From NCBI GenBank assembly GCA_944389575.1, contig CALXMX010000211.1, positions 1 to 44,483 of the forward strand: a DNA stretch of 44,483 bases, given 5' to 3'. The DNA comes from an uncultured Opitutales bacterium (GTDB lineage Bacteria > Verrucomicrobiota > Verrucomicrobiia > Opitutales > Intestinicryptomonadaceae). Positions 2,213 to 44,483 of this stretch are shown here, in pieces. The position numbers and the translations under genes were made by a program. How positions within the stretch are numbered: position 1 is the first letter of the stretch; each line of letters starts with the position of its first letter. The notes beneath the pieces are model-generated. The model made no database searches and was not told the origin of the DNA. It was given only the letters and a program-made list of their open reading frames with translations.

Positions 2213-4423
2213 TTGGGGAAAGCGATGGGAAAGGGAATATTTTATATTTTTGCGTCGGCATGCACGCTGGTTGCCGGCTTGCAGGCCGGCGCGCAGGTGG
2301 CGGACAAGATAGACCGCAAGGCGCTGGTGAGCCGACACAACATAACGCTCAACCAAGTGCGCCCGGAATCTCCGTCGCAGGTCGGCAACGGGGAGTTCGC
2401 CTACGGGTTCGACATAACCGGAATGCAGACTTTTATAAAATTCAACACAATGGCGCACTGGGCCTGGCACAGCGAGCCGATGCCGGAGGGAATGAAGAGC
2501 GAGGCGGATTTCAAAGGATTAGAAATAAAAGCCGACGGAAGGAAAATCCGGCTTCCCATATCGGAAAATTCGGTGCGCGGAATGTCCAAGTCGTTCAGGC
2601 GAGACAATCCCGAAAACGTCACTTCGGACGAACAAAAGAAGATAGCGGCGTATTTGGCGTCCAACCCCCATGCCGCGCCGCTCGGACGAATAGGGTTAGA
2701 CCTGCGAAAGGCGGACGGCTCCCGCCCGCGGCTGTCGGACTTCAAGCGGTACGACTGTACGCAATACATAAACCTATGGACGGGCGTCGCCGACAGCCAA
2801 TTCAAGCTCGACGGAAAAGATGTGAACGTCAAAACCCTCTGCCGCCAGGATTCGGACGTCCTCGCCTTCCGGATAAGCTCCGACATACTGGGGGACGGAA
2901 GAATCAAAATAGCATTCGAGTTCCCCTACCCCTCGACCTGCGAGAGAAAAACGACGCTCGGCGACTATTCCAAGCCCGGCGCGCATTCATCGAAGGCCGA
3001 AGCCGAAAAGAACCGCGCTACAATATCGCGCCGCGCGGACGACTTAATATACAGCCTTGAAATATCGTGGAACGGCCCGGCCGAATTTTCTCCGGACGAA
3101 TCCAATCCGCACAAATTTTATCTGGCTCCGAAATCGGACTCCATTGAGCTGGTCTGCCGATTTGCTAAAGGCGGCGCAAGAAAAGCGGAGCCGATGCCGA
3201 CATTTGAAGAGTCTCTCGAAGAATGTAAAGCCGCGTGGAAAAAGTATTGGGAAAGCGGCGCGGCGATCGACTTTTCCGGCAGCATAGACCCGCGCGCGAG
3301 GGAGCTCGAGCGGCGCGCGGTGCTCTCGCAATACCTGATGAAGGTCAACGAGGCCGGAAGCCTGCCGCCGCAGGAGAGCGGTCTTGTGAACAACTCGTGG
3401 GCGGGCAGGTTCCACTATGAGATGATATGGTGGCATGTCGTCCACTTCTCGCAGTGGGGCAGGCCGGAGCTCGCCGAAAAACAGCTTTCAATATTTCGCA
3501 AATACCTCCCCGACGCAATCGAGCGCGCAAAAGCCCAGGGAAACTCCGGCGCGCGCTGGCCGAAATGCACGGGCGACACCTTCCGCGAATGGCCGCACAT
3601 AATCCACTACACGCTGATATGGCAGCAGCCGCACCCGATATATTTCGCCCAGCAGCAGTACAGGATAAACCCGTCGAAAGCCACGCTGGGAAAGTGGAAA
3701 GACGTCGTTTTCCAAACCGCGGAATTTCTCGCCGACCTCCCCGTGCACAACGACGCAACCGGATTTTACGACCTCCGCCCGCCGCTCACCGTGGTATCCG
3801 AAAATACGGATCCGCTCACGACGAAAAATCCGACATTTGAACTCAGCTACTTCCGCTACGGACTGCGCACGGCGCTGGAATGGAAGCGCATGCTGGGCGA
3901 GCCCGCGCCGGAAAAGTGGGAGCGCGTGCTCAAAAACCTCGCGCCGCTTCCCGTCGAAAACGGGCTGTACGTCCTGCACGAGGGCGTTGAAGACATGTGG
4001 ACGCGCTACGCGTACGAACACCCCGCGTTCATAGGGGTGTACGGAATGCTTCCGGGCGACGGGGCCGACAGAAAGACCGCCAAAGACACTTTGGCCAAAG
4101 TTTCGCAGACGTGGAGGTTCGACGGCATGTGGGGGTGGGACTTCCCCATGCTCGCCATGGCCGCCGCGCGAACGGGGAACAGGGAGCTCGCCGTATCGTA
4201 CCTATCGCATCTATCGGAAAAATTCCGCTTTGACGAACACGCGTTAGTAAACTGGAACGGCCTAATATACTTTCCCGCAAACGGCGGCTTTTTGAGCGCG
4301 CTGGCAATGCTTGCCGGCGGCTGGGACAACGCGACGGACGAAGACTTCGATCCGGTGTTTCTCGGATTCCCAAAAGACGGAAACTGGAAGGTTCGCGCAG
4401 AGGGATTCAATAGGTACGAGTAA
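2213..4423 (+). CDS. Secreted six-hairpin (alpha/alpha)6 glycosidase-like protein (GH65/GH95-like, family uncertain)
   Basis: 736 aa with an N-terminal signal peptide. Motifs IDRKALVSRHN, VGNGEFA, ELERRAVLSQYL, PPQESGL, GARWPK, LIWQQPHPIY, WGWDFP and YFPANGG resemble Bacteroidota-type six-hairpin glycosidases (recognised from memory). Confidence 0.65.
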   Translation: MGKAMGKGIFYIFASACTLVAGLQAGAQVADKIDRKALVSRHNITLNQVRPESPSQVGNGEFAYGFDITGMQTFIKFNTMAHWAWHSEPMPEGMKSEADFKGLEIKADGRKIRLPISENSVRGMSKSFRRDNPENVTSDEQKKIAAYLASNPHAAPLGRIGLDLRKADGSRPRLSDFKRYDCTQYINLWTGVADSQFKLDGKDVNVKTLCRQDSDVLAFRISSDILGDGRIKIAFEFPYPSTCERKTTLGDYSKPGAHSSKAEAEKNRATISRRADDLIYSLEISWNGPAEFSPDESNPHKFYLAPKSDSIELVCRFAKGGARKAEPMPTFEESLEECKAAWKKYWESGAAIDFSGSIDPRARELERRAVLSQYLMKVNEAGSLPPQESGLVNNSWAGRFHYEMIWWHVVHFSQWGRPELAEKQLSIFRKYLPDAIERAKAQGNSGARWPKCTGDTFREWPHIIHYTLIWQQPHPIYFAQQQYRINPSKATLGKWKDVVFQTAEFLADLPVHNDATGFYDLRPPLTVVSENTDPLTTKNPTFELSYFRYGLRTALEWKRMLGEPAPEKWERVLKNLAPLPVENGLYVLHEGVEDMWTRYAYEHPAFIGVYGMLPGDGADRKTAKDTLAKVSQTWRFDGMWGWDFPMLAMAAARTGNRELAVSYLSHLSEKFRFDEHALVNWNGLIYFPANGGFLSALAMLAGGWDNATDEDFDPVFLGFPKDGNWKVRAEGFNRYE

Positions 4424-6715: not shown

Positions 6716-6719
6716 TGCG

Positions 6720-6920
6720 CTTCGGAGCTTTGGAACTCCGAAACTTTGCCCATTCCGCTATTCCGACATTTCTACGCTCCGAAATTCCGAAATTCCGATA
6801 CTCCGGCGTTACGGCACTTTGACGTTCCGGCGCTTCAAGGTTTCGGCATTCCGGCATTTCGACATTCCCGCTCCCCGGCGTTTCCGCACTCCGCCGTTCC
6901 GGCGTCTCTACGCCTCCCGC
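6720..6920. repeat. Degenerate 8-bp periodic tandem array (~25 units, consensus ~RTTCCGRC)
   Basis: cttcggag ctttggaa ctccgaaa ctttgccc attccgct attccgac atttctac gctccgaa attccgaa attccgat actccggc gttacggc actttgac gttccggc ... A weaker second patch lies at ~7115-7220. Confidence 0.8.
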
Positions 6921-7254: not shown

Positions 7255-7635
7255 CTATTTGACGGTTATTATGAAGCGGCGCGTATCCACGCCTTTTTTT
7301 TCCCACGGGCGCTTGTAGGTGAGCTCCAGCTGCGCCTTTCCCCTCTGAACGGCGACAAACTCAATGCGCTCCTCCCCGCCCGCGCCCACCGCCGCCGAGC
7401 CGTCGGCGGAATCGGGAACGTATATCTGACGCACGAACGACGTTGTCGGGCTACCGTCGCTCACGAGCGTCCAGCCGTATCCGGTGGTTTTGTTGGATTT
7501 TAGGCGTATCTCAAAAGCCTCGCCCTTTTCGACTACAGCCGATGTGGCGTCGGGCCCCAAGACCGCCCTTCCCCCGGCGCAGCCGGCGCACAGCAGCATA
7601 GCGGCCGCCGCCGCAATTCTAAAAAAATTTTCCAT
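7255..7635 (-). CDS. Chagasin-family (I42) cysteine protease inhibitor, predicted lipoprotein
   Basis: 126 aa from ATG 7635 with a GGAGG SD upstream. Lipobox-like LLCAG/C, and the three chagasin loops SNKTTGYGW (cf. NPTTGYxW), VGAGG and YKRPWE. Confidence 0.85.
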   Translation of the reverse strand: MENFFRIAAAAAMLLCAGCAGGRAVLGPDATSAVVEKGEAFEIRLKSNKTTGYGWTLVSDGSPTTSFVRQIYVPDSADGSAAVGAGGEERIEFVAVQRGKAQLELTYKRPWEKKGVDTRRFIITVK

Positions 7636-7682
7636 ATCTGCGATTCCTCCCGTTAGACAAATTCCCCAAAAATTTCCCGAAC

Positions 7683-10235
7683 TCACGCTTTCGGCGCGGG
7701 CTTTTGCTCCGCGGAATTTTTCTCCGCGCGCTTCGCCCTCTTGGCTTCGGCGGCCTTTTTTTGCGCCCGAACCTTCGGCGACACCTCCGACACCCACGCC
7801 CACTGCCTCTTCTTAAAATCGTCCATTTGCTCCTTTGAGGCAACTACAAAATCGACCGGCGGAATCTTGCATATGTCGATGAAGTCGCGCTTCGCCCGCC
7901 CCCTGAATACGAGCGAGAACTTCCCCTTCGCGCCCGGCTTTATTTTCGCCGCGTCGCGCTCAAGCTCGACATACACCATTCTGTTCGGGCCGTCCGTATA
8001 TGCGCGCACTATTTTCAGCCCGTCCACATTTTCCAAGAACGCCGCCGCAATGGGCTTGTTCGCCGACCCCTTCATCTGCCCAACCGCGACGCGGACGCTC
8101 CCACTTTCGGGAACGCACACCGGCTGGACGATTTTTTCCGGCATGAACCTCAAGTGCGAATATCCCCGCGCAAATCCGCTGGGCGCGTTGACCGAGAGCG
8201 ACATTTCGGAACACGGCACAAGGTGCATATAGTAGAACGCCTGCATCATGTCCTGGCAGGGAACGGCCATGCGCTTGAGCGTCCTCGCTCCGACTTTTGC
8301 GCGCCCCGCGATTTTTATGTTGCGAATCCGCGGCGATATTTTGTCGGGCGCGGCAAGCATCAGTTGCGCGGAATCCTCGCCCCGGGCAATCTCGCCGTTG
8401 TAAACCTTAAATCCATTAGGCAGGCCTTCGACCGAAAGTTCGATAGGCTCGTCCATTCCGTTCTTTCTGAACGCCACAACCCGCACCGAGACTATCTCTC
8501 CCGGGCGTATGTTGATATTGGCGGGCTCCGCCCTCAGCTTGAAATCCGGAGACGGCCTGCCGACCTTCAGCCTGTAAGAGTGCGAGGGCGAGCCCTCCCC
8601 GCGCGCGTCGCACACCCGGAGCGAATACTGCCCGGACTCCTTCGGCTCAAACACCAAACGCGAATCCGCATGGTGTGTCACCAACCCGCACGATGGATCC
8701 TCGAAATCGTCGGCCGTCGCCACAATCTTTCCGGACGAGTCGCGCAACTCCAAAGCCGAATCCAGCGGAGAATCAAGGCGGCGCGCAAAAATCTCCATCT
8801 CCACCTTCTCGCCTTCGGAGAGGTAAAACTTGTAGTAGTCCGACGCCCCCGCCGCCGCTATGCGGCCGTCCACGAGCGCGGGAAGCTTCAGCCGCTGCGG
8901 ATTCTCCGCCGTACTCCCCTTCCCCCCGGAGGTTTCCGACATCGACATCGCCGTTCCCATGCCGCGCCCCGAAAGCGGAATATTTTTTGAAAAACAACCG
9001 TCCGCAGAAAATTCGAGGCTGCCGAATTTGCCCCCCTTGAGAACGACGCTCTTTCTGTCGAGGTTGACGCCGTGCATCTCAAACGCGCCCTCCGGCGCCC
9101 CGCCGCCGGACGCATTTTCCGACGCGTTCGCAATGTTGAATCCGAGCGGGAAAACCGACTCCACGAACGGAACCTCGCCGAGCAGTATCCTATAAACGAA
9201 GTCCTCGCGGCTGCGGTATATCGCGTCGCGTATTTCCAAAACGTACTTCCCGTCGGCCGGAATCTCGGCGACGATGAGCGAATCCGGGCGGTGGCCGAAA
9301 TCGTCGTTGTACGCAATCTCCGCGCCCTTTTCGTCGCGCAGAATAAGGACCGTCTGAAACCAGCCCGGAACGGCGTCGGATATGTACGGAATGAGCGACT
9401 GCGCCCAGACGGCGGCCACGATTTTCTGACCCTTTTTCGCCTTGAAGCGGTAGAAGTCGGTCTTTCCCTCCACGATTTGCCCGTTGACGAAAGCCGGAAT
9501 TTCCACGTCGAATATCTCCGGGGCGTCCGGGACGATAAAATTTGTGTCCTTCCAAGTTTTCAGGTTGTTGCCACTCCAATATTGGGGCTGTTTGACGCGC
9601 TCGCGGGCGTCCTCGCGCAGGCTCTTTTTGGAAAACTCCGGAAGGCTGCCGATGTGGAATTTCATGGAATTTGAAAGCCCGGCGGGCGTCAGAATCTTTA
9701 TGTCGCGCTCGCCCAATTTGGCGTCCCCGGAAATGTCCAGTTCAATTTCGACAGTCTCGGCCATCGGCTCGGAGGACACGTAGCGAAGGTAGTATGACTC
9801 CGACGCCTCGCGAAAGCTCCGCACGTTTTCCGGAATGCTCATGAAACCCTCGCGTATCTTTTTGCGCACCTTCCAAAGCGCGCCCGGAACGTCAGATTCC
9901 GACGCCTTCTTAAGCTCCTCGCCTATCTCCGGGTTGTCCTCGATGTACTTTTTCTCAAACTGATTCCGGAGCGACACGAGCTTCCCGTTATCCTCCGGAA
10001 TCGTTATGCGCGTTATTTTCGCGCTCACGCCTTCCCCGCTTACAAACGCCGCCGAAGCGTCCTTAAAATCCTTCCCGCCGAGCAGTATCTTAGTCTTGGC
10101 GCCCCGCTGCGCCCCGCCCGGATAGACGTACGCGATATTCGGAGGCTTGTTCTGCGCAAACGCCGGCGCCGCGGAAAGCGCCGCAAGACACGCCGCCGCA
10201 AAAATTCCAAATCCCGCCCTCAAAAAAATCTTCAC
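7683..10235 (-). CDS. Secreted PPC (pre-peptidase C-terminal) domain protein of the PVC DUF1501/DUF1553 cluster
   Basis: GTG at 10235 overlaps the upstream TGA (GTGA). Signal peptide ending AFA, then YVYPGGAQRG and two PPC-like repeats (DFYRFKAKKGQ...AYNDD...DGKYVLEIRD; DYYKFYLSEGE...RLDSPLDS...ADD...GQYSLRVCD). 850 aa. Confidence 0.75.
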   Translation of the reverse strand: MKIFLRAGFGIFAAACLAALSAAPAFAQNKPPNIAYVYPGGAQRGAKTKILLGGKDFKDASAAFVSGEGVSAKITRITIPEDNGKLVSLRNQFEKKYIEDNPEIGEELKKASESDVPGALWKVRKKIREGFMSIPENVRSFREASESYYLRYVSSEPMAETVEIELDISGDAKLGERDIKILTPAGLSNSMKFHIGSLPEFSKKSLREDARERVKQPQYWSGNNLKTWKDTNFIVPDAPEIFDVEIPAFVNGQIVEGKTDFYRFKAKKGQKIVAAVWAQSLIPYISDAVPGWFQTVLILRDEKGAEIAYNDDFGHRPDSLIVAEIPADGKYVLEIRDAIYRSREDFVYRILLGEVPFVESVFPLGFNIANASENASGGGAPEGAFEMHGVNLDRKSVVLKGGKFGSLEFSADGCFSKNIPLSGRGMGTAMSMSETSGGKGSTAENPQRLKLPALVDGRIAAAGASDYYKFYLSEGEKVEMEIFARRLDSPLDSALELRDSSGKIVATADDFEDPSCGLVTHHADSRLVFEPKESGQYSLRVCDARGEGSPSHSYRLKVGRPSPDFKLRAEPANINIRPGEIVSVRVVAFRKNGMDEPIELSVEGLPNGFKVYNGEIARGEDSAQLMLAAPDKISPRIRNIKIAGRAKVGARTLKRMAVPCQDMMQAFYYMHLVPCSEMSLSVNAPSGFARGYSHLRFMPEKIVQPVCVPESGSVRVAVGQMKGSANKPIAAAFLENVDGLKIVRAYTDGPNRMVYVELERDAAKIKPGAKGKFSLVFRGRAKRDFIDICKIPPVDFVVASKEQMDDFKKRQWAWVSEVSPKVRAQKKAAEAKRAKRAEKNSAEQKPAPKA

Positions 10236-11641
10236 GACATTATTTCCGAAAGTATCCCCGCGCGCTTTGCGCCTTCGTTCTGGCCGGCAAGCACGCTCAC
10301 CCTGTCGCCCTGCGGAGTAATCAGGCCGGCGGACGTGTCTATGCCCAAATTGTAGTAAATGCTTCCGATGATGTCGCACGGATACGCGGGACGCTCGACG
10401 ACCTGCTCGCCCCTTTCGTCCGTCGCGCCGAGCACGCTCGCGCCCTTGAATCCCCCGCCGGCAAGCATGTGCGAAAACGCGTCGCCCCAATGGTGGCGCC
10501 CGCCGGAATACGGGGGCTTCCAGTCGATCTTCGGAGTGCGGCCGAACTCGCCGACCCACCAGACTATTGTGGAGTCCAAGAGTCCGCGCGCCGAGAGGTC
10601 GGCAATTAGCGCGGCGACCGCCCTGTCCGTGGGGGGAAGAAGCTTGTTCATCTCCTTGAAGTGGTCCTTGTGCGTGTCCCAGCCGCCGTAGTTTATCGTG
10701 ACGTACGGAACCCCGACCTCCACGAGCTTGCGAGCTATGAGGCATTCGTTTCCGAATCGGTTGTTGCCGTAGGCCTCGCGCACTTCGCGCGGTTCGGACG
10801 AAACGTCAAAGACCTTGCCCGCCTCGCCCAGCACGAGGTTGTAGGCCTGCTCCAAAGCCCGCTCGGAAGTTTGCAGGTAACCGGAATTGCGGAGGGTTTT
10901 TTTGAAAGTGTCCATGTCGTCGAGAAGCCGCCTGCGCGACTTCTGGCGCGCCACGGTCAAATCGCGCGCGACAATCCCCTCCACCTGAAACGGCGTTTTG
11001 GCGGGGTCCCCGCCCGTGGCAAACGGCTTGTAGCGCAGGCCGAGAAACCCGGACTCCGAAAACCTCCCCTGCGGCTGCGTCATCACAATGTACGGCGGAA
11101 TGTCGCCCTTGTATCCGGCGTCGTACCCCTTGAATTTCGACACGACCGCCCCCGCGCACGGAAATACAAACCTCCCCGGCTCGCGCCCCGTCTGGACGAG
11201 ATACGAAGCGGTCTCGTGCGCGTTCAAGCCGTGAGTGGCGCCGCGCACGACCGCGTATTTGTCCGCGCACTTTGCCAGATTCGGCATCAGCTGGCCTATT
11301 ATCAGGCCGTCCACATTCGTCTTGCAATACGACGTCAGCGGGCCGCAGTAGTCGTAGCCAAGCGACGGCTTTGGGTCCCAAGTGTCGGTGTGCGCGGGGC
11401 CTCCCCAAAACCAAATTTGAATTACGGACTTCGCCCTGCCGAAAGTCCTCGGGCCGGCGCCTCCCGACGCGGGCGAGTTCGCCGCCGAAGCCGCCTGCGC
11501 CTGCGAAGCCTGCGACCCGCTTGCTCCGCCGGCGCCCGACGCTCCGGCGCCCTCCGCCCGGAGCCTGCACGTCACCGCGCCGCAAGCCGCAAGACACGCC
11601 GCGTCTTGCAAAAATTTGCGTCTGGTTATTGCGCGTCTCAT
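10232..11641 (-). CDS. DUF1501 domain protein with Tat signal peptide
   Basis: MRRAITRRKFLQ twin-arginine motif; AKSVIQIWFWGGPAHTDTWDPKP, ARKLVEVGV, GWDTH, GEFGRTP, GRHHW and LAGGG. 469 aa. Confidence 0.88.
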   Translation of the reverse strand: MRRAITRRKFLQDAACLAACGAVTCRLRAEGAGASGAGGASGSQASQAQAASAANSPASGGAGPRTFGRAKSVIQIWFWGGPAHTDTWDPKPSLGYDYCGPLTSYCKTNVDGLIIGQLMPNLAKCADKYAVVRGATHGLNAHETASYLVQTGREPGRFVFPCAGAVVSKFKGYDAGYKGDIPPYIVMTQPQGRFSESGFLGLRYKPFATGGDPAKTPFQVEGIVARDLTVARQKSRRRLLDDMDTFKKTLRNSGYLQTSERALEQAYNLVLGEAGKVFDVSSEPREVREAYGNNRFGNECLIARKLVEVGVPYVTINYGGWDTHKDHFKEMNKLLPPTDRAVAALIADLSARGLLDSTIVWWVGEFGRTPKIDWKPPYSGGRHHWGDAFSHMLAGGGFKGASVLGATDERGEQVVERPAYPCDIIGSIYYNLGIDTSAGLITPQGDRVSVLAGQNEGAKRAGILSEIMS

Positions 11642-11649
11642 ATCTATTA

Positions 11650-13707
11650 TCAGTGGCTGTTGATAAATTCCTCGGTGTTTACAAGCGCCCACGCAAGGTC
11701 GTTGACCCTGTTCCAATCCGGCTTGGCCTTCAGATAGGCCGCGGCCTCCGCGCGCGTGGGCTCGCGCGAAAGTATTGAAAGATAAAGCGTCCTGAACGCC
11801 TGCGGAGCCGGCAGCTTGAAAATTGCCCGCAACTTCGGCGAGCGCGACAGCTTGGACCTTATATGCGTGGAATTTACCATGTGCAGCTTCTGCGACGAAT
11901 TCGCCGCGTTGACGCGCTCCGCCGCCGTGCCCGTGTCGCGGGCGGGCTTCCCGAACAGCTCCAAAAACGACGTGGTTATGCTGCCGTCCGGCAGGGCGAT
12001 CGCGCGCGCGTAGTTCGGAAGCGTGGTGTACGGCTCGGGAGTAGTGCTCGAATATATCTCCGTGCTGCCGGTCAGCGCGCACAGGGCGTCTATTATCACC
12101 TCCGCGTCGAGCCTCTGCACGGGATAGACCGCAAAAAACTTGCGCGCGGCCCCGGGCTCGGAACGCGGTATGAACGACTGCGAATACGTATTCGACATCG
12201 CTATAAGCTTGAACAGCTTTCGCACGTCGAAATTCTGCGACTGAAAGTACTCGCCGAGAAAATCCAGAAGCTCCGCGCAAACCGGGGGGTTGTCCGCGAA
12301 CATGTCGTCCACCGGCGAAACTATCGGCTGGCCGAAAATCCAGGCCCACGCCCTGTTGGCGAAGGCGCGCGAAAAGTACGGATTGCCCTTGGCCGTCAGC
12401 CAGCCGGCGAATATCGCGCGCAAGTCGGCCTCCTCTCCGACGTCGACCTCCCAGCCGTCGGGGAGAACCCCCTTGAACGGTGCGCGCTTGGAAATGTCGT
12501 TGACGACGACCTCCTCCTTCCACTCCTTCGTGGACTTCAACAGCACGCGCGAAAAAAAGGCCGACATTTGGTCGCGCTTTTCCCGCGGAAGCTTCTCGAA
12601 CCTCATTCCCATGAACGTGAGCGCCGCGCTCGACGCCATTGAGGGGGCGTCGCGGCTCTGCATCGCCCTGTAAAAATTCACCTCCCCGACCCTGAAGTTG
12701 CTGCCGGAAGCGCACAGCATGCGCCGCGCCATTTCGCCGTAGGAGACGTTGCGCATTATGCACTCGCGTATGAACCTGTCGTACGCCTGCGCGGCGTTCG
12801 GCCACAGATTGACGGGGAACTCGGCCTTCACCCTAAATATGTCGCCGAATTTGAGCGCCCAGTAATCGACGAAATTGTCCGACGCCATAAGAGCGTCGAT
12901 TAGGCGTTCGCGCTTGTCGGCGGAGGCGTCGTCGAGATACGCGCGCAGCTGTTCGACCGTCGGCAAAGTTCCCGTCAGGCCGAGGTATAGCCGCCGGCAA
13001 AGCACCGCGTCGGAAGCCTGGTTTGCGGGCGCGAGCGAATGCGATTTGTGCAGGGAGCGCACGATTACGTCTATGTGGTTGGCCGGAGCTTGCGCCGGGG
13101 CGCCGGTCTCGTACGGCGAGGCGTCGGAAAGCTTGAGAGCCTTCCATTCCGGCCTTTTGAGGATTTCTGCGGACTTGTCCGCGGAAGGCGCTTTTTTTGA
13201 ATTTGAAGCCTTGCCCTTTGGAGAAGTTTTTTTCGCGCCCGAGCCCTTGTCCACCCCGGAGATTTTTTTCCCTCCCGAAATTCCGCCCGCAACCGAGACT
13301 TTTTTTGCCTTCGCCGTCCCGTCCGCCGTCCCGTCCGCCGTCCTGTCCGCCGCCCCGGGAACCCTGTCCGCCGCCAAGGCTCCGCCGGCGCCCGAAGGCT
13401 TGCCCGCATTTAAAACTTTGCTCGCGCCGGAAACTTTTTCGGAAGCGGAAGTTTTGCCGTCAGCGCGCGCCTTGCCCGCCGCGGGAGTTTCGCCGGCATC
13501 GGAAGTTTTCTTTTTGGCAGAAACTGTGGCCGATTCCGAAGCTTTCATCTGGCGGTTTTCCGGAAGAGCCCGCGCGGAGACCGAAGAGGCGGCCCCCTCT
13601 TTCACCGCCCCTGCGGAATCCGCCTGCGCGCCTGCGGATTGCGCGCGCAGACACATAGGATACGCAATCAATGCGCACATCAAAAACCTGAAAAAAACCC
13701 CCGGCAT
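11650..13707 (-). CDS. Secreted DUF1549/DUF1553 (PSD1-type) protein with low-complexity N-terminal stalk; no CxxCH motif
   Basis: Signal peptide; NHID, SDAVLCRRLYLGLTGTLPT, KRERLIDALM, NPYFSRAFANRAWAWIFG, PVDDM, ELLDFL, FDVRKLFKLIAMSNTYSQS, RLDAEVIIDA, FLELFGKP and LYLSILSREP...DLAWALVNTEEF. Confidence 0.85.
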   Translation of the reverse strand: MPGVFFRFLMCALIAYPMCLRAQSAGAQADSAGAVKEGAASSVSARALPENRQMKASESATVSAKKKTSDAGETPAAGKARADGKTSASEKVSGASKVLNAGKPSGAGGALAADRVPGAADRTADGTADGTAKAKKVSVAGGISGGKKISGVDKGSGAKKTSPKGKASNSKKAPSADKSAEILKRPEWKALKLSDASPYETGAPAQAPANHIDVIVRSLHKSHSLAPANQASDAVLCRRLYLGLTGTLPTVEQLRAYLDDASADKRERLIDALMASDNFVDYWALKFGDIFRVKAEFPVNLWPNAAQAYDRFIRECIMRNVSYGEMARRMLCASGSNFRVGEVNFYRAMQSRDAPSMASSAALTFMGMRFEKLPREKRDQMSAFFSRVLLKSTKEWKEEVVVNDISKRAPFKGVLPDGWEVDVGEEADLRAIFAGWLTAKGNPYFSRAFANRAWAWIFGQPIVSPVDDMFADNPPVCAELLDFLGEYFQSQNFDVRKLFKLIAMSNTYSQSFIPRSEPGAARKFFAVYPVQRLDAEVIIDALCALTGSTEIYSSTTPEPYTTLPNYARAIALPDGSITTSFLELFGKPARDTGTAAERVNAANSSQKLHMVNSTHIRSKLSRSPKLRAIFKLPAPQAFRTLYLSILSREPTRAEAAAYLKAKPDWNRVNDLAWALVNTEEFINSH

Positions 13708-18497: not shown

Positions 18498-20210
18498 ATG
18501 AAAAAACTACTGCTGATTCTCGCAATGGCCCTTCCCGCCGCCGACCTCCTCGCATGGGGCGCCGGCCACGACGTTCAAGTCGCGCAAACATTCCGGAGGC
18601 TTCCCCTGCAAATACGGGAAAACATATCCGACCAAAATCAAAAGGCCATGCTGCGCTGGGCGCACTATCCGGACGGGCACAAGAAGCCGTCGTCCAACGC
18701 GGAAGTCGTAAAGGCGTTGGGCGAGAGCGAGGCGAAATGGTTAGACGGCTTCATTCCGGTCCAATACGCCTTCCACTCAACAAACGGCAAGTGCGCCGCG
18801 TTTATGATGCTGGCAAAGTCGTTCCGCGAGAAAAGATACGACGCCGCGACTTTCTACATGGGCGCGCTCATGCACTCCATAGCCGATCCGAGCGCCTTCA
18901 ACCACGGGCCGCTGACGCACATGCTGACGTACTTTCGCTACAACAACGCCGCCTTCCCCAAGTGCAACTTGGACCTGATTGTTTACGACAACTCCCCGGA
19001 AATCCGCAAGCGCACCGAAGAGCTTCTCGAAGGATTCAAGCCCGACATGTCGGAGAGGAAGCTCGACGACGTTCTCACGGAATTGCAGATTCAAAGCTGG
19101 AAGGCCGCCGCATTTATGTCGTCGATAGAAAGCGGGCTGTACGTTCCGCCGGCCGCCGGGCAAAACTATTCCAAGGAATACGTAGAGACCATGGCGCAGA
19201 CGGCGAACCGCCAAATACGCGAGGGGGTGAACCTCGTCTGCGCCGCATGGGCAATAGCTAATTCCGGCCAGAAAATAGACATCGGGAATTCGGAATTTAC
19301 CAAGTCCGCAAAGGCGAAGATTCCGCGCCCGATAGCCGAGCGCGGCGAAAAGGCCATAGCCGAATTTGTAAAGGCGAAAAAACTTTCGGACGATTCTATA
19401 TACGCCGGCATTGCCGATGGAGCCGGGCCGCTTCCGGCCATAGGCGTCGTGGCCGAGCCGTCTATGGAAATGGGGATAGCCAAGCTCGGCTTTTCGAGCA
19501 GGTTCTTAGCAACGCTCTGCGCCAGGACTCTCAAGGCCGAGGGCAAGAGCTTCAGGCTCGTGAGTCTGTTCGACATCGAAAAGGGCGTCCCGAATCCGAA
19601 GGACATTCCCATTCTGATAATACCCACGCGGGCGGCGTTCCCCAACGCGAAGGAATTGAACAAGTATGTGGAAAGCGGCGGGAAGCTCCTCATAATCGGC
19701 GGAACGAACGCAAAAATAGCGAACTTGGGGGGATATTTTGCAAAGCGCCCGAACAATGAGACTCCGGTCTCGCCCGTGTACGGAACGGCAAATACAGAGG
19801 AAATAAAAGACATGAAAATCGAGTTCGACGGCTCGCTCGCGGAGGTCTCGAAGAAAAAAGTCGCCCCCTTTGCGGCAAACCCCAACACGCCGGCCGGCTG
19901 GGGCAAGCCCGTCGCAAATCTCGAAATCAAGATTCTCGACGACAAGGTCGTCCCGCTGGCCTGGCTCCAATACGGAAAGCACCAAACAAAATACTGCGTG
20001 TGCGCGGCGTTTAAAAATTCCGGCGGAGAAATATTCGCAATATGGCTTCCGCAATACCTAATCATGCCCATGTTGTTCACGCCCGAAAAGGAGCGCATGC
20101 CCGACTGGAGCAATCCGCAGCTCGACAGTTTCGCAAAGCCCATATTCGCGGAGTGCGTAAAGCTTCTCGAAAAACGGCAGGCCAAAGGCGATTCGGGCGG
20201 AAAAAATTAA
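18498..20210 (+). CDS. Secreted zinc-dependent phospholipase C / S1-P1 nuclease-like protein with an extra C-terminal domain
   Basis: Signal peptide ends LLA, leaving mature N-terminal WGAGH. HYPD, YAFH, LMHSIADP and FNH match the W-H-D-H-H-D-H metal-ligand pattern. The C-terminal LNKYVESGGKLLIIGG resembles a GATase-like/trimerisation domain. Confidence 0.6.
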   Translation: MKKLLLILAMALPAADLLAWGAGHDVQVAQTFRRLPLQIRENISDQNQKAMLRWAHYPDGHKKPSSNAEVVKALGESEAKWLDGFIPVQYAFHSTNGKCAAFMMLAKSFREKRYDAATFYMGALMHSIADPSAFNHGPLTHMLTYFRYNNAAFPKCNLDLIVYDNSPEIRKRTEELLEGFKPDMSERKLDDVLTELQIQSWKAAAFMSSIESGLYVPPAAGQNYSKEYVETMAQTANRQIREGVNLVCAAWAIANSGQKIDIGNSEFTKSAKAKIPRPIAERGEKAIAEFVKAKKLSDDSIYAGIADGAGPLPAIGVVAEPSMEMGIAKLGFSSRFLATLCARTLKAEGKSFRLVSLFDIEKGVPNPKDIPILIIPTRAAFPNAKELNKYVESGGKLLIIGGTNAKIANLGGYFAKRPNNETPVSPVYGTANTEEIKDMKIEFDGSLAEVSKKKVAPFAANPNTPAGWGKPVANLEIKILDDKVVPLAWLQYGKHQTKYCVCAAFKNSGGEIFAIWLPQYLIMPMLFTPEKERMPDWSNPQLDSFAKPIFAECVKLLEKRQAKGDSGGKN

Positions 20211-28795: not shown

Positions 28796-30100
28796 TCAAT
28801 GCGCCTTTCGGGAATCCCTAAGCAGCTGCCTGCGGCCGATGTCGCGGCGGAAGTGCGCGCCGGCAAACCCCGTCTTTTCAGCGAGGCTATAGGCCTTATC
28901 AAGCGCACCGGCAAGCGTGTCTGCGCGCGCGGTAAGCCCGAGCACGCGGCCGCCGTCGGACAGAATTTTTCCCCCGGACGATTTCGTGCCCGCATGGATT
29001 ATCCACGCTCCCTCCGGAATGTCCGAATCCTGCGGAAGCGAAATTTCAATCCCCTTTTTGTAAGAGCCCGGATAGCCCGCCGCGCACATCACCACGACCG
29101 CCGCATAGCCGTCGGAAATCTTCACGCCCGAATTGTCCAATTTTCCGCGCGCGATGCCGTACATCAACTCGAGCGGATCGCTCTCTATGAGCGGCATCAA
29201 AACCTGGCACTCCGGATCGCCGAAGCGCACGTTAAACTCCACGACCTTCGCCCCCCGGGCGGTTATCATTATTCCAACATACAGCGTGCCGCGATAATCT
29301 ATGCCTTCGGCGGCAAGCCCCTTCAAGGTCGGCTCGACAATATTCCTGCGAACGTCGCCGAGCACGGACTCGTCCGCGACGGCTGCGGGAGCGTACGCGC
29401 CCATGCCGCCGGTGTTCGGCCCGGTATCGCCCTCGCCGACGCGCTTGTGGTCCTGGCTGGCCGGAAGCATCACGTAATCGCGCCCGCACACCATGAGCAT
29501 TATGCTGGCCTCCTCTCCCTCCATTTTCTCCTCGACCACAATTTCCCTTCCGCTGTCTCCGAAAGTTCCGCCCTCGAGCATCTCGCGCGCCGCCTCAACC
29601 GCCTGTTCCCTGCTTTCGGGAATCACAACTCCCTTGCCCGCGGCCAGGCCGCTCGCCTTTATAACAACGTCGAACGGTGCCGACTCTATGTAGGCCTTCG
29701 CCGCCGCAAAGTCCCTAAAGCTCTCCCCCTCGGCGGTGGGTATGCCGTACTTTTACAAAAAAAACTTTGAAAACGCCTTGCTCGCCTCCAGTCTGGCGCC
29801 GTCCCTGCCCGGGCCGTAAACCGGAATCCCGCAGGCCCGAAGCCTGTCGGCAAGCCCCATCGACAGCGGAACCTCCGGCCCGCATATGACGAAGTTAAAG
29901 CCTCCGCCCGCGGCCAGTTCGACCAGCGCGTCAATGTCCTCGGCGCCCACATTTCCAAACGTTTCGCAGTCGCGCGATATTCCGCCGTTGCCGGGCGCGC
30001 ACGCCAGCCTCGCCAGTCTCGGCGACCTCTTCACCGCCTTGACAATCGCATGTTCCCTGCCGCCGCCGCCGACGACCAAAACCTTCAAATCTCTCTCCAT
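28796..30100 (-). pseudogene. purD: Phosphoribosylamine-glycine ligase interrupted by one in-frame TAA (29753-29755)
   Basis: A continuous frame reads KVLVVGGGGREHA...APGNGG...GPEVPL...LEASKAFSKFFL*KYGIPTA...VIKASGLAAGKGV...QDHKRVGEGDTGPNTGGMGAY...EFNVRFGDPE...GGRVL...FRRDIG. The two ORF-track pieces are in frame. Confidence 0.9.
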
Positions 30101-31315: not shown

Positions 31316-32353
31316 TCAGAAAAACACTTTGAGCCTCAGCGTCCAAAACATGTGGACGGGGTGTTTTTGCTGGTTGAATTCCGCCGTGCGCAAAGTGTAG
31401 TTCAAGTCCGCCTCAAAGCAGCCGTAGCGCGCCGACACCCCCGCGAGCACCTCCCCTACAAGCCACTTGGGAACGACCCACCTACTGTCGGCAAAAGTGT
31501 TCCCGTCGAGGGCGATGTCGTACGCCACAAATCTTGCAGCGCCCCCGCCGTAAAAATACAGGTGCCAATCCGGACGGCCGCCTTCCGGAATCCACTGAAC
31601 GTCGTTTCCACCGGCGGCGTCTATTCTGTTAGGGTCGAACGAATACGGAACATTGTAGCCGAAGCGCACCAGCGCCCGCAGCTGCCCCTGCGTCTTGACG
31701 TTGCCCAAGTCAGCCCCGATCGAGCCGATAAAATCCGACGCCCACCCGCGATGTCCGCCGAAGCGCAAGAGACGCTCGCTGTGATTGTACCCTATCTCTA
31801 TTCCCGGCTCGTTCTTAACTTGGTCGTGCCAGCCCATCGGCCATGTGGCCCCGATGATGCTGTGAAAAAACTTCTGGGCGTCCTCCGCCAGCGATATGGG
31901 GCCGACAACCCCGAGATTCACCGAGAGCGAATCAAGCCTGTCTTTCGACGCCAAATGCGCCCCCGCACCGACGTACAGCCAGCCGGCGTAAGGCCTGTCC
32001 CACGCCGGGGGATTCGGATCCGATATCTCGCCCGGAACGTACATATTCTGGCCTATGCATGCGGTCTGATACGCCTGCCTCCCGTCGATCAGCGCGCGGA
32101 GAGCCATGAACTGGAGCTTTGAGGCCAGAAAGTCGTCGCCCTCGCCGGTGTACATGATTTTCAGGCCGTTCGTGTAGTATCTGTCGGAAAAGTAAATGTC
32201 GTTTTCGACGTAGAGAGAAATGCTTTGAAGTATCGGCTTTTCGGCGGGCTTTGCCTCAAAATCCGCCGGCCTGCGCGCCGATTCCGCCCGGGCGGCCTGC
32301 GCCGCGCAGAGAAAAAACGCGGCGGCGATTGACAAAATCCGCAAAAATTTCAT
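31316..32353 (-). CDS. LpxR-family lipid A deacylase (DUF2219) outer-membrane barrel
   Basis: Signal peptide; ENDIY, DRYYTNG, GQNMY, DRPYAGWLY, GVVGP, QKFFH, GWHDQ and LDGN; terminal Phe. Confidence 0.85.
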   Translation of the reverse strand: MKFLRILSIAAAFFLCAAQAARAESARRPADFEAKPAEKPILQSISLYVENDIYFSDRYYTNGLKIMYTGEGDDFLASKLQFMALRALIDGRQAYQTACIGQNMYVPGEISDPNPPAWDRPYAGWLYVGAGAHLASKDRLDSLSVNLGVVGPISLAEDAQKFFHSIIGATWPMGWHDQVKNEPGIEIGYNHSERLLRFGGHRGWASDFIGSIGADLGNVKTQGQLRALVRFGYNVPYSFDPNRIDAAGGNDVQWIPEGGRPDWHLYFYGGGAARFVAYDIALDGNTFADSRWVVPKWLVGEVLAGVSARYGCFEADLNYTLRTAEFNQQKHPVHMFWTLRLKVFF

Positions 32354-32390
32354 AAGGTTTAGATAATGCGAATTACATCGGGCAAGGCAA
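32329..32390. promoter_or_regulatory. Candidate overlapping divergent promoters for rsmD and the LpxR-like gene
   Basis: Plus strand TTGACA (32329), N18, TAAGGT, N7, ATG (32366). Minus strand TTGCCT (32390), N16, CATTAT, N9, ATG (32353). Confidence 0.5.
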
Positions 32391-33022
32391 GAGGAATTTC
32401 TCTCAAAGCGCCTCGCGGCGACGCCACGCGGCCGGCCACCGACGCCGCGCGCCAAGCCGTGTTTTCCTCCCTCTCCGGCCTCGTGGAGGACGCGAGCGTG
32501 CTGGACCTCTTCGCCGGAACGGGCTCGTACGGGCTCGAAGCCCTGAGCCGCGGCGCGCAGACCGCCGTGTTCGTCGAGAACTGCCGCGGCGCGATAAAAT
32601 GCCTAAGAATCAACGCCGGCGCCGTCTTGAAGGCTATCGGCACCCAGAGCGGCGGACGGGCGGAAATAATTGAGGCCGACGCATTCAAAAACCCCGCGCT
32701 CTGCGGGCGCAAATTCGACATCGTATTTGCCGACCCGCCCTACTCCATGCTGCTCGACCCCGCATCGGCAGAAAAAATATTCTCCGCCCTCGCCCGCGTC
32801 GCCAACCCCGGCGCCGTATTCGCGCTTGAAGCCCCTGCGGAATTTGAACCGGAGCAAAGCGGATTATGCGGAAAATTCGGGTTTGAACAAATTAGGAGGC
32901 TCGGGAAAAAATCGAGGGGCAAGCCGAGCCAAATTTTGCTGAGAGTCGCCCAACGCGGAGCGGGCGTACAATCGGACGACCTTTTGCAATCAAGGCGGAA
33001 CCCATCTGAAAAAGTTTCCTGA
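32366..33022 (+). CDS. rsmD: RsmD family rRNA methyltransferase
   Basis: MRITSGKARG, TRPATD, VLDLFAGTGSYGLEALSRGA and FDIVFADPPY. Confidence 0.9.
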   Translation: MRITSGKARGISLKAPRGDATRPATDAARQAVFSSLSGLVEDASVLDLFAGTGSYGLEALSRGAQTAVFVENCRGAIKCLRINAGAVLKAIGTQSGGRAEIIEADAFKNPALCGRKFDIVFADPPYSMLLDPASAEKIFSALARVANPGAVFALEAPAEFEPEQSGLCGKFGFEQIRRLGKKSRGKPSQILLRVAQRGAGVQSDDLLQSRRNPSEKVS

Positions 33023-42782: not shown

Positions 42783-44483
42783 TTAAACCTCCTTCGCCGC
42801 CACTACATAGACGGGATTGTAATCCAAAAAAACTCCGCCTCCGGGAGACGGGAAACGCTCGGCGTACCTGCGGAAAAACTCCGCCGCCACCCCCGGAGTC
42901 CAAAACGACTTGAATCCCCCGTTGACGCCTGTGGCCCTTATGTGGCGCAAAACTTCGCGCGGGCTTTCAAACTCCCTTTGAACTAGGCAGTCGCGCGCGA
43001 GCAAAACCGAAAAGCCGCACTCTCCCAGCACGGAAACTATGCGCCCGAAAGGCATGTAGTCCAGCCCGCGCCCGGAGAGTTCCCGCGTCTGGCGAAAATT
43101 TTTCTCCCCGAAGGAAGAAAACGCCAAAAGACCGCCGGGATTCAAAATTCCGAAAAGCTTTGCGTAAAATGCGGGCGAATCCCCTATCCACTGGAAGCAG
43201 GAGGACGACAGTATCAAATCGTACCCGCGCCCCAAATCCGCCGACGCCGCGTCGCCGCAAATTATGCGCGCCCCGGGCAAAAACGACGCCGCGCGCGCGG
43301 CAAGAAGCGCGCTCTCATCGTTCAAAGTCCAATCCGCGCCCGGAAAGCGCGCTGCAAAAATCCTCGTCAAAAGCCCCGTCCCGCAGCCTATCTCCAAAAT
43401 CTTTTTCGGCGCAAAATTTCCGGAATTGCCCGCGCACTCCGCGCCCGACGCGCTCTCCGAACCGACGCGCGCGTCCTCTTGCGCGCGCACGACTTCCGAA
43501 TCGCGTCCGCCAGCAGCAATGCTCTTGTCCGCAACAAGGGGCCCGCCAACGGCCTGCGCGCCCCGCGCAACGCCCCCAAGCCCTGCGCCGCGCGCGAAGA
43601 ACGCGCAATCAGTTTTGCGCAGGCCGCCGGCTTTAGCCCCGCCCTCCGGGCATTCGGCGCGCCCGACGCGTTTCGCGCTCGCAAAGCCGCTCTTTTTTCC
43701 GGCAGTTTTTCCGCTATCGGAGCATTCTGAATTTTCGGCGCATTCTTCGGCATTTCCGGCGCACCCCGCGCGCGAAGAACGAGCAAACGCCGATTCTTCG
43801 CAAGCCAAATCCCCATTTGCGAGAACCTCAAAAAACAGCCTCTCCAACTCGGTACATATCTCCCGCTGGACGGACGCGGAGGAATCGTAGGACGGCGCGC
43901 TCCTTTCAAACTGGCTCGGGGGCCGCATGGCAAGGGCGAAGGCGGCCTCGAACAGGCGAATGTCGAAATGCGCGTCGCCTGCGAGTATCAGGCGGCCGCC
44001 CCACGCGCGCTCTAAATTGCGCGGGTAAAAAATCCTGTCCCTGCGCCCGCCCAGCGCCCACGTCCAATGCGATGCGTCGAAGCTTTTGCCGTCGAGAATG
44101 GAGCCCAAAAATTCCAGCTCGCGGCGGAGCCGCTCCGCCGGGCGCATTCTGCCGGACGCCCCGAACGCGCCGTCAAAGCCGCACACCCGCCGAAAGAATT
44201 TTGCAAGGCCGGCCTCGTCGAGATTGTCCAACGTCTTCCTGAACAGCTCGCGCGATATTCCGCGCTCGTCGTCAATCGGGCACGGGCTGGAGCACAGAGC
44301 CACCTTCACGCCCGCCGCGGACATCAGCCGCGGAAAATGCTCCGCCACCCCCAGGCCGAACGACCACGCGACAATCCCCACGCGCCCGTATCCGTCGGCT
44401 ACGCTTTCCAAATCCAGTTCACATTCGAGGTTTTCGTAGTCGCAGAGCATGAGAACGTCGCAGTCGTCCGGCAGGCGCAGCAG
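42783..44483 (-). CDS. bioC: BioG/DUF452 pimeloyl-ACP methyl ester esterase fused to BioC malonyl-ACP O-methyltransferase; start lies beyond the window
   Basis: Frame is open to the window end (LLRLPDDCDVLMLCDYENL). Esterase part: VAWSFG, PIDDERGI, DRIF, H. BioC part: FERSAPSYD..A.VQ, ILEIGCGTG, SSSCFQW, LNPGG and VLRHIRATGV. Directly upstream of bioD. Confidence 0.85.
   Translation of the reverse strand: MLRLPDDCDVLMLCDYENLECELDLESVADGYGRVGIVAWSFGLGVAEHFPRLMSAAGVKVALCSSPCPIDDERGISRELFRKTLDNLDEAGLAKFFRRVCGFDGAFGASGRMRPAERLRRELEFLGSILDGKSFDASHWTWALGGRRDRIFYPRNLERAWGGRLILAGDAHFDIRLFEAAFALAMRPPSQFERSAPSYDSSASVQREICTELERLFFEVLANGDLACEESAFARSSRAGCAGNAEECAENSECSDSGKTAGKKSGFASAKRVGRAECPEGGAKAGGLRKTDCAFFARGAGLGGVARGAQAVGGPLVADKSIAAGGRDSEVVRAQEDARVGSESASGAECAGNSGNFAPKKILEIGCGTGLLTRIFAARFPGADWTLNDESALLAARAASFLPGARIICGDAASADLGRGYDLILSSSCFQWIGDSPAFYAKLFGILNPGGLLAFSSFGEKNFRQTRELSGRGLDYMPFGRIVSVLGECGFSVLLARDCLVQREFESPREVLRHIRATGVNGGFKSFWTPGVAAEFFRRYAERFPSPGGGVFLDYNPVYVVAAKEV

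What the first reader, a model, noticed from the sequence alone, without database searches (positions are those of the whole stretch)
7255..13707. Four-gene exported system: DUF1549/1553, Tat-DUF1501, PPC protein and chagasin inhibitor
Seen: four co-directional genes with an 8-bp gap, a 4-bp GTGA overlap and a 47-bp gap. All carry export signals of three kinds (Sec, Tat, Sec, lipoprotein). Known: DUF1549/DUF1553, DUF1501 and PPC genes form a recurrent, functionally uncharacterised cluster in Planctomycetota/Verrucomicrobiota. Unusual here are the compact heme-less form and the appended I42 protease inhibitor. Inference: an envelope complex of a folded, probably metal-loaded DUF1501 enzyme (D/H-rich motifs HTD, WDTH, GEFGRTP, RHHW), a helical scaffold and a beta-sandwich adaptor, protected or regulated by the inhibitor. 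This is the best candidate in the window for an undescribed system.
Basis: partly seen in the sequence, partly recalled or inferred. Interest (0 to 1): 0.75.

Follow-up and report, generated by a model that had tools for sequence, protein, structure and literature searches.

The report
DUF1501 enzyme trio plus bystander chagasin
Three of the four genes form a widespread, heme-less version of a gene module described in 2012, predicted to be an exported phosphatase-fold enzyme docked on a helical partner, while the fourth gene, a likely protease inhibitor, sits beside them in only one small branch of this gut bacterial genus and is likely not part of the system.

Summary
The four genes, gaps (8, -4, 47 bp) and domain calls are real; all lie on the minus strand. 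The four-gene system is not supported. DUF1549/1553–DUF1501–PPC travel together in 25 of 25 family loci and 37 of 41 informative metagenome loci, but the chagasin gene is adjacent in only 3 of 20 family genomes that carry both, those three form one clade (100/100), and it is absent from 66 of 66 informative metagenome loci. Where the family has a fourth gene it is WD40, as Kamneva 2012 described. The trio lacks the CxxCH motif (0 of 120 homologs), so the published cytochrome idea does not fit this subfamily. DUF1501 has the alkaline-phosphatase fold (Z 19.5) with an invariant histidine (H142) in the register of the usual Ser/Thr/Cys nucleophile; it is predicted to bind the helical protein away from that site (0.88, best control 0.00). 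Substrate unknown. The scan noted this trio before in other genomes. Value: one copy per small genome makes the module testable.

The parts
11650..13707 (-). Gene A, 685 aa: likely Sec signal, about 170-aa Ala/Lys/Ser/Gly-rich linker, then heme-less DUF1549 (PSCyt2) + DUF1553 (PSD1); predicted mostly helical partner of B
   Evidence: Pfam; linker 22% A, 15% K, 14% S, 13% G; CAQCHDHKFD segment of a canonical relative aligns to a gap; model of residues 195-685 pLDDT 92.5; no clear fold match; predicted complex with B
10232..11641 (-). Gene B, 469 aa: Tat signal + DUF1501; alkaline-phosphatase-superfamily fold with remodelled site (D89, K91, R133, H142, D322, H324, E365, R368, R382, H384)
   Evidence: Pfam; TIGR01409; model pLDDT 94.3; VIA Z 19.5, rmsd 3.4 over 249 to ENPP6 5ege; Foldseek sulfatases E 5e-7; conservation; register
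7683..10235 (-). Gene C, 850 aa: likely Sec signal, PPC-domain (beta-sandwich) protein with an internal repeat and conserved acidic loops; third fixed member of the operon
   Evidence: Pfam; self-match of residues 244-353 and 449-559; conserved residues; weak profile hit to collagenase 5iku E 0.006; follows B in 25 of 25 family loci, directly or after a WD40 gene
7255..7635 (-). Gene D, 126 aa: chagasin-family (I42) lipoprotein, motifs NKTTG / GAGG / RPW; family-wide single-copy gene that sits behind the trio only in one clade
   Evidence: Pfam; PDB hits 2wgn E 1e-10 and chagasin 2h7w E 2e-10; distribution

Best explanation
Genes A, B and C are one conserved heme-less operon, in which the Tat-exported DUF1501 protein is predicted to be an alkaline-phosphatase-fold metalloenzyme that docks on the helical DUF1549/1553 protein and likely cleaves or transfers a phosphate- or sulfate-bearing group outside the inner membrane, while the chagasin gene is a separate, likely protease-inhibiting lipoprotein that joined the end of the operon once in this branch of the genus. 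Shown: gene order and its conservation, loss of the CxxCH segment, the invariant residues of B, the single-clade adjacency of D. Predicted: B's fold and the A-B interface, made by B's helical insert (about residues 221-270) on the C-terminal DUF1553 part of A (about 586-685), clear of the conserved site. Inferred: D322/H324/H384 hold one metal where NPP/AP enzymes hold their leaving-group zinc; H142 takes the place of the Ser/Thr/formylglycine nucleophile and acts either as nucleophile or as a ligand of a second metal with E365; K91, R133, R368 and R382 line an anion pocket; C supplies substrate-binding or anchoring beta-sandwiches; D inhibits foreign papain-type proteases and is probably read from the trio's transcript without being a subunit.
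For: Trio: A upstream and C downstream of B in 25 of 25 family loci (24 fetched plus the window) while flanking genes are unrelated housekeeping genes that change; A and B upstream of C in 37 of 41 metagenome loci with at least 3.5 kb upstream; one copy of each in the own genome. Heme-less: CxxCH in 0 of 120 A homologs and 0 of 47 metagenome A genes. Fold: Z 19.5/19.2/18.9 to ENPP6, ENPP7, Xac NPP, 18.7 to PafA; all 50 listed rows are of this superfamily by their titles. Register: invariant H142 lies 10 residues before the helix-ending Gly in 147 of 149 rows, as the Cys of a sulfatase does and the Thr of NPPs (motifs printed); GEFG aligns to the sulfatase GDHG; the same four elements are present in 20 of 20 further DUF1501 proteins, 10 canonical and 10 distant, 8 of 8 tested upstream partners of the distant ones being DUF1800. 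Complex: score 0.88, best of 3 controls 0.00; that mark was reached by 116 of 157 solved complexes and 2 of 215 mismatched pairs; runs agree in at least 91% of contacts, partner pLDDT at least 89; none of 10 site residues is in the interface; no solved relative of A or B by single-sequence or profile search beyond weak sulfatase hits. D apart: adjacent in 3 of 20, one clade 100/100; both genes in 20 of 37 genomes against 19.5 expected if independent (24 x 30 / 37); 0 of 66 metagenome loci (Pfam on 65 downstream ORFs also none); no C1 peptidase in 46 of 46 family genomes; a Pseudomonas I42 lipoprotein inhibits host papain-like proteases (abstract).
Against: No activity, metal or substrate is shown. 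B lacks the strand-1 Asp (W79; variable column), the Ser/Thr/Cys nucleophile and the His after the second Asp (F366), so ordinary AP/NPP/sulfatase chemistry cannot be assumed. The residue mapping rests on motif register and predicted secondary structure: the fold tools gave no residue pairs, and full-length profile alignments to NPP and sulfatase sets were weak (probability 1.5-11%; a global run failed). B's interface residues are less conserved than the rest (0.46 against 0.55). In G019 D overlaps C's stop by 4 bases and the block A-B-C-D was kept while both flanks changed, which fits selection on the linkage within that clade. The trio is missing from 13 of 37 family genomes searched, so it is dispensable or unassembled there. 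C was neither folded nor docked.
Confidence: 0.6

Rival explanations
1. B is a non-hydrolytic metal- or anion-binding subunit (carrier, sensor or assembly factor) and A-B-C is a binding scaffold of the envelope, in the way YejM/PbgA uses this fold for LPS binding (that comparison is recalled).
For: Three canonical catalytic positions are replaced; PbgA/YejM are among the fold matches (Z 15.6 and 15.2); A weakly resembles the phycobilisome linker scaffold domain in three searches (E 0.084; Z 5.2; top row but E 0.55).
Against: Seven polar residues are invariant in 149 of 149 rows and the pattern holds in subfamilies scoring under 75 bits, which is more typical of catalysis; best fold matches are active NPPs. 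The linker likeness is below every threshold.
Confidence: 0.2
2. The module is a redox/electron-transfer unit, as proposed for PVC DUF1501-PSCyt clusters, with B's His-rich site holding a redox metal.
For: Kamneva 2012 section 22. CxxCH-bearing relatives exist in the same family (4 of 25 loci) and a cytochrome c assembly match is found in 36 of 37 family genomes, in G000 only under the cut-off. Three His plus Asp/Glu could bind Fe, Mn or Cu (inference).
Against: This subfamily has deleted the CxxCH segment yet keeps the same site in B as the heme-bearing forms; A has no conserved Cys pair.
Confidence: 0.12
3. One reading: a four-protein envelope system in which the I42 protein protects or regulates the trio.
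For: 47-bp gap here, 4-bp overlap in G019, block kept across changed flanks in three species; all four products look exported.
Against: 3 of 20, one clade; 0 of 66 metagenome loci; presence of the two genes is uncorrelated across 37 genomes; I42 sits beside unrelated genes in the 15 other I42 loci fetched; none of A, B, C is a papain-type protease.
Confidence: 0.07

Closest known systems
DUF1501 / weak-PPC / PSCyt1-Big_2-PSCyt2-PSD1 / PSCyt1-WD40 four-gene cluster of PVC bacteria (Kamneva et al. 2012, PMC3542564, section 22 read whole)
   Same: Tat-type DUF1501, signal-peptide PPC protein and PSCyt2-PSD1 protein in one cluster; function unknown. A CxxCH- and WD40-bearing version occurs in the same family (L005, L024, L026).
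   Different: No WD40 gene, no PSCyt1 or Big_2 match, CxxCH segment deleted, order A-B-C, one copy per genome in a gut lineage; the I42 gene is no part of the described cluster.
Alkaline phosphatase superfamily: NPPs (ENPP6 5ege, ENPP7 5udy, Xac NPP 7mw8), PafA (5too), S1 sulfatases
   Same: Core fold over about 250 residues (Z 15-19.5); Asp/His/His triad and the second acidic ligand in matching sequence positions.
   Different: His in the nucleophile register; no strand-1 Asp; DxH spacing; EF for DH; no CxPxR/SxPxR; helical insert predicted to bind a partner.
DUF1800-DUF1501 operons (mentioned in PMC5122149, passages read)
   Same: Same four site elements in DUF1501; a large partner gene directly upstream.
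   Different: Partner is DUF1800; its likeness to A is weak (probability 15.6%, E 0.002 over 290 columns); no PPC gene seen in the 10 loci fetched.
Chagasin/ICP family, MEROPS I42 (T. cruzi chagasin, P. aeruginosa ICP 2wgn; P. putida lipoprotein Cpi1, bioRxiv 10.64898/2026.06.02.729523, abstract)
   Same: NxTTG, GxGG and RPW loops, lipoprotein signal, about 126 aa.
   Different: Lys for Pro in NPTTG (Pro is structural and tolerant according to PMC2607524 passages); target unknown; no own C1 protease found.

Membership tests
Kamneva 2012 four-gene DUF1501 cluster | DUF1501 protein, sometimes with twin-arginine signal | tested here: met
Kamneva 2012 four-gene DUF1501 cluster | Signal-peptide protein with weak PPC domains | tested here: met
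   PPC E 4e-8; signal judged by eye
Kamneva 2012 four-gene DUF1501 cluster | PSCyt1/Big_2/PSCyt2/PSD1 protein with cytochrome c motif | tested here: not met
   Only PSCyt2 + PSD1; CxxCH segment deleted
Kamneva 2012 four-gene DUF1501 cluster | PSCyt1/WD40 fourth gene | tested here: not met
   None in the window locus; WD40 gene present in L005, L024, L026
Alkaline phosphatase superfamily (fold level) | AP-like alpha/beta core | tested here: met
   Z 19.5, rmsd 3.4, 249 aligned; Foldseek E 5e-7, on a predicted model
Alkaline phosphatases / NPPs | Ser/Thr nucleophile and strand-1 Asp, Asp-His pair of the second zinc | tested here: not met
   H142, W79, E365-F366 at these positions by motif register
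Alkaline phosphatases / NPPs | Asp, His, His ligands of the first zinc clustered in space | tested here: inconclusive
   D322, H324, H384 invariant and in matching order; coordinates not returned by the tools
S1 sulfatases | C/S-x-P-x-R motif giving formylglycine | tested here: not met
   B reads HETASYLVQTG at this register
Alkaline phosphatase superfamily (function) | Metal-dependent phospho- or sulfo-ester cleavage/transfer | not testable with these tools
   needs assay
Chagasin / I42 | Profile match and NPTTG, GxGG, RPW loops | tested here: met
   E 3e-22; alignments; NKTTG variant; motifs as defined in PMC2607524
Chagasin / I42 | Inhibition of papain-family proteases | not testable with these tools
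   needs assay
Proposed four-gene system with I42 | I42 gene conserved beside the trio | tested here: not met
   3 of 20 family genomes, one clade; 0 of 66 metagenome loci

The most novel reading that the evidence does not exclude
DUF1501 is an undescribed catalytic class of the alkaline phosphatase superfamily that uses a histidine (H142) as nucleophile and works only when clamped by a helical partner (DUF1549/1553 or its possible distant relative DUF1800); the heme-less trio is its minimal form, showing that cytochrome domains are optional add-ons, and a single-copy gut Verrucomicrobiota is the place to find the substrate.
Probability: 0.2. Interest if true: 0.72.

Novelty: new variant of a known kind. 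Interest (0 to 1): 0.33.

Why it matters
DUF1501 modules are large, unexplained gene families of PVC bacteria (41 copies each of the PSD1 and PSC2 domains in R. baltica, PMC2754498 passage; up to 25 DUF1501 matches in one genome). A heme-less, single-copy version in 2-Mb gut genomes removes paralog redundancy and argues that electron transfer is not the core job. The predicted A-B complex and the H142/D322/H324/H384 site give concrete mutants to test.

Tried and rejected
Single-sequence PDB search with B: 0 hits. Fold searches of A: no match at E<=0.001, best Z 5.6; this does not show a new fold. Global hhalign of B against NPP sets failed; local runs were weak. ESM Atlas gave no answer for C or for a stored homologue, so C's architecture beyond Pfam and a weak collagenase hit is open. 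No RNA holder listed for the region: co-transcription untested. Promoter and terminator scans were at chance level and hairpins at the C/D gap, after D and before A were not better than shuffles (z -0.2 to 1.2). Idea that heme loss follows loss of cytochrome c maturation: rejected, the assembly protein is found in most family genomes. Search for a recurring fourth gene downstream of C in metagenomes: 65 mechanically picked ORFs gave only clusters of 2-3 and scattered Pfam families. No sulfatase or NPP family match in the own, 87% complete genome. The I42 tree is a quick, unfinished search; the three adjacent copies group with support 80 only. Literature searches listed no paper that tests DUF1501 function or describes the heme-less trio; subscription papers and supplements (Kamneva Fig. 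S14, PMC5615132 Text S1/Fig. S7) were not seen and may bear on this.

Full report
Observation. Pfam gives DUF1549 + DUF1553, DUF1501, PPC and Inhibitor_I42. B's Tat signal passes TIGR01409. The signals of A and C were judged by eye; D's lipoprotein Cys is kept in 18 of 18 homologs. The flanks are a divergent patatin gene and a convergent AMP-binding gene. The genome (2.08 Mb, 87% complete) has one match each for DUF1501, PSD1 and I42. The nearest named records are Opitutales such as Candidatus Merdousia and CAG:312 (titles).

What travels together. Among 37 genomes of the family (own included), DUF1501 is found in 24 and I42 in 30; both in 20, I42 alone in 10, DUF1501 alone in 4, neither in 3. 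Independence would give 19.5 with both. I fetched all 24 DUF1501 loci of the relatives and 15 of their unlinked I42 loci. A precedes and C follows B in 25 of 25 loci including the window; the genes around the trio are changing housekeeping genes. I42 follows C only in G000, G008 and G019, which form one clade nested in the genus in the DUF1501 tree (100/100). In the 15 other I42 loci the neighbours are unrelated. In a metagenome scan with C's alignment (553 confirmed, best 80 kept), A and B lie upstream in 37 of 41 loci with at least 3.5 kb upstream, and my I42 profile, built from family members, found no I42 in any of the 80, 66 of which have at least 600 bp downstream; Pfam on 65 mechanically picked downstream ORFs found none either. 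Against this reading: in G019 D overlaps C's stop by four bases and the four-gene block was kept while both flanks changed, so D is probably co-transcribed in this clade. Where the family does have a fourth gene inside the cluster, it is a WD40 gene between B and C (L005, L024, L026).

Known module. Kamneva et al. 2012 (PMC3542564; passages, section 22 whole) describe a four-gene cluster of DUF1501, a weak-PPC signal-peptide protein, a PSCyt1/Big_2/PSCyt2/PSD1 protein and a PSCyt1/WD40 protein, and suggest electron transfer. PMC5615132 (passages) says nothing is known of their function; PMC4960237 (passage) notes that Akkermansia muciniphila lacks the module. The window's form differs: the CAQCHDHKFD segment of a canonical relative aligns to a gap in A, CxxCH is in 0 of 120 closest homologs and 0 of 47 metagenome A genes, and in 4 of 25 family loci, which form their own clade. 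The heme-less form is common: 7,763 of 8,000 scored candidates passed for A and 1,392 of 7,996 for C, with source names from Planctomycetes, Verrucomicrobia, Armatimonadota, Hydrogenedentes and Acidobacteria. Heme loss is not due to missing maturation genes. Earlier notes of this scan record the same trio in other genomes.

Protein B. The model (149 rows, pLDDT 94.3) matches the alkaline phosphatase superfamily: Z 19.5, rmsd 3.4 over 249 residues to ENPP6, then ENPP7, Xac NPP, ENPP4, PafA and sulfatases; Foldseek gives sulfatases at E 5e-7. That Pfam already files DUF1501 in the alkaline phosphatase clan is recalled, not from a call. Invariant polar residues in 149 of 149 rows are D89, K91, R133, H142, D322, H324 and H384 (full-length numbers), with E365, R368 and R382 nearly so. 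H142 opens the predicted helix that ends in TG, 10 residues before the Gly in 147 of 149 rows; the Cys of a sulfatase and the Thr of NPPs (motifs printed) stand in the same register. GEFG aligns to the sulfatase GDHG, and W79 to the Asp of the NPP first strand in a weak alignment. So one Asp/His/His set is kept and the nucleophile side is remodelled. The same elements are in 20 of 20 further DUF1501 proteins from other families of the order, 10 canonical and 10 distant (one spurious 13-bit hit dropped), the distant ones lying behind DUF1800 genes in 8 of 8 tested. This mapping is by register and secondary structure; the tools returned no residue pairs and whole-profile alignments were weak.

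Protein A and the complex. Residues 195-685 fold with pLDDT 92.5 into a mostly helical domain without a clear match; a weak likeness to the phycobilisome linker domain recurs below threshold, and PMC12981691 (passage) reports a likeness of DUF1800 to ApcE; A against eight DUF1800 proteins gives probability 15.6%. A with B scored 0.88, best of three controls 0.00; that mark was reached by 116 of 157 solved complexes and 2 of 215 mismatched pairs, counts that hold only roughly with my own alignments; runs agreed in at least 91% of contacts and partner pLDDT was at least 89. The interface joins B's helical insert to A's C-terminal part and contains none of ten site residues; it is slightly more conserved than the rest in A (0.73 against 0.67) and less in B (0.46 against 0.55). 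This supports binding but does not show it.

Proteins C and D. C has one PPC match, an internal repeat and many conserved acidic residues and a weak hit to collagenase 5iku (E 0.006); it was not folded or docked. D aligns to P. aeruginosa ICP and chagasin with NKTTG, GAGG and RPW; PMC2607524 (passages) gives the Pro a structural role. No C1 peptidase was found in 46 of 46 family genomes, some incomplete, so the targets are likely foreign, as reported for the Pseudomonas lipoprotein Cpi1 (abstract).

Verdict. What remains is a heme-less, WD40-less three-gene variant of a known but unexplained module, most likely an exported AP-fold metalloenzyme on a helical partner with a beta-sandwich third subunit, plus an I42 lipoprotein gene that joined once. 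Substrate, metal, role of C and co-transcription are open. Searches for a functional study of DUF1501 listed none in the held library. Interest 0.33.

Noticed in passing
window 6718-6910: Degenerate 8-bp tandem repeat (TTCCGGCA-like) in the gap between the AMP-binding gene and D; a genome-wide scan shows many short tandem repeats of all periods, so likely ordinary here.
   Followed up: partly
L005, L022, L024, L026: A second, CxxCH-bearing subfamily of the module in the same family (own clade, 100/98); three carry a WD40 gene between DUF1501 and PPC; G033 holds both types.
   Followed up: partly
L016:3015-4861: In G020 the DUF1549/1553 gene reads in two frames (break near residue 270-282 of the query); assembly error or broken gene.
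   Followed up: no
L013:6178-8328 and L016:6197-8410: Shorter PPC proteins (716 and 737 aa) that lack the stretch matching about residues 362-441 of C.
   Followed up: no
window 13126-13638: Low-complexity Ala/Lys/Ser/Gly linker of A, of variable length among relatives and largely absent from the environmental homologs (median length 532 aa).
   Followed up: partly
window 42783-44450 (-): BioG-like esterase fused to a methyltransferase (BioC-like) upstream of a dethiobiotin-synthase-like gene.
   Followed up: no
window 31316-32455 (-): LpxR-family outer membrane protein directly upstream of an LptF/G permease gene.
   Followed up: no
window 18498-20210 (+), 2213-4423 (+), 28799-29770 (+): Long ORFs with no Pfam family over cut-off (2213-4423 has only a weak GH95 hit, E 0.0015).
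   Followed up: no
L154 group (L152, L154-L169, L174): Phosphodiesterase-family proteins of the order that also read SEYG where NPPs have SDHG, like the EF of DUF1501.
   Followed up: no
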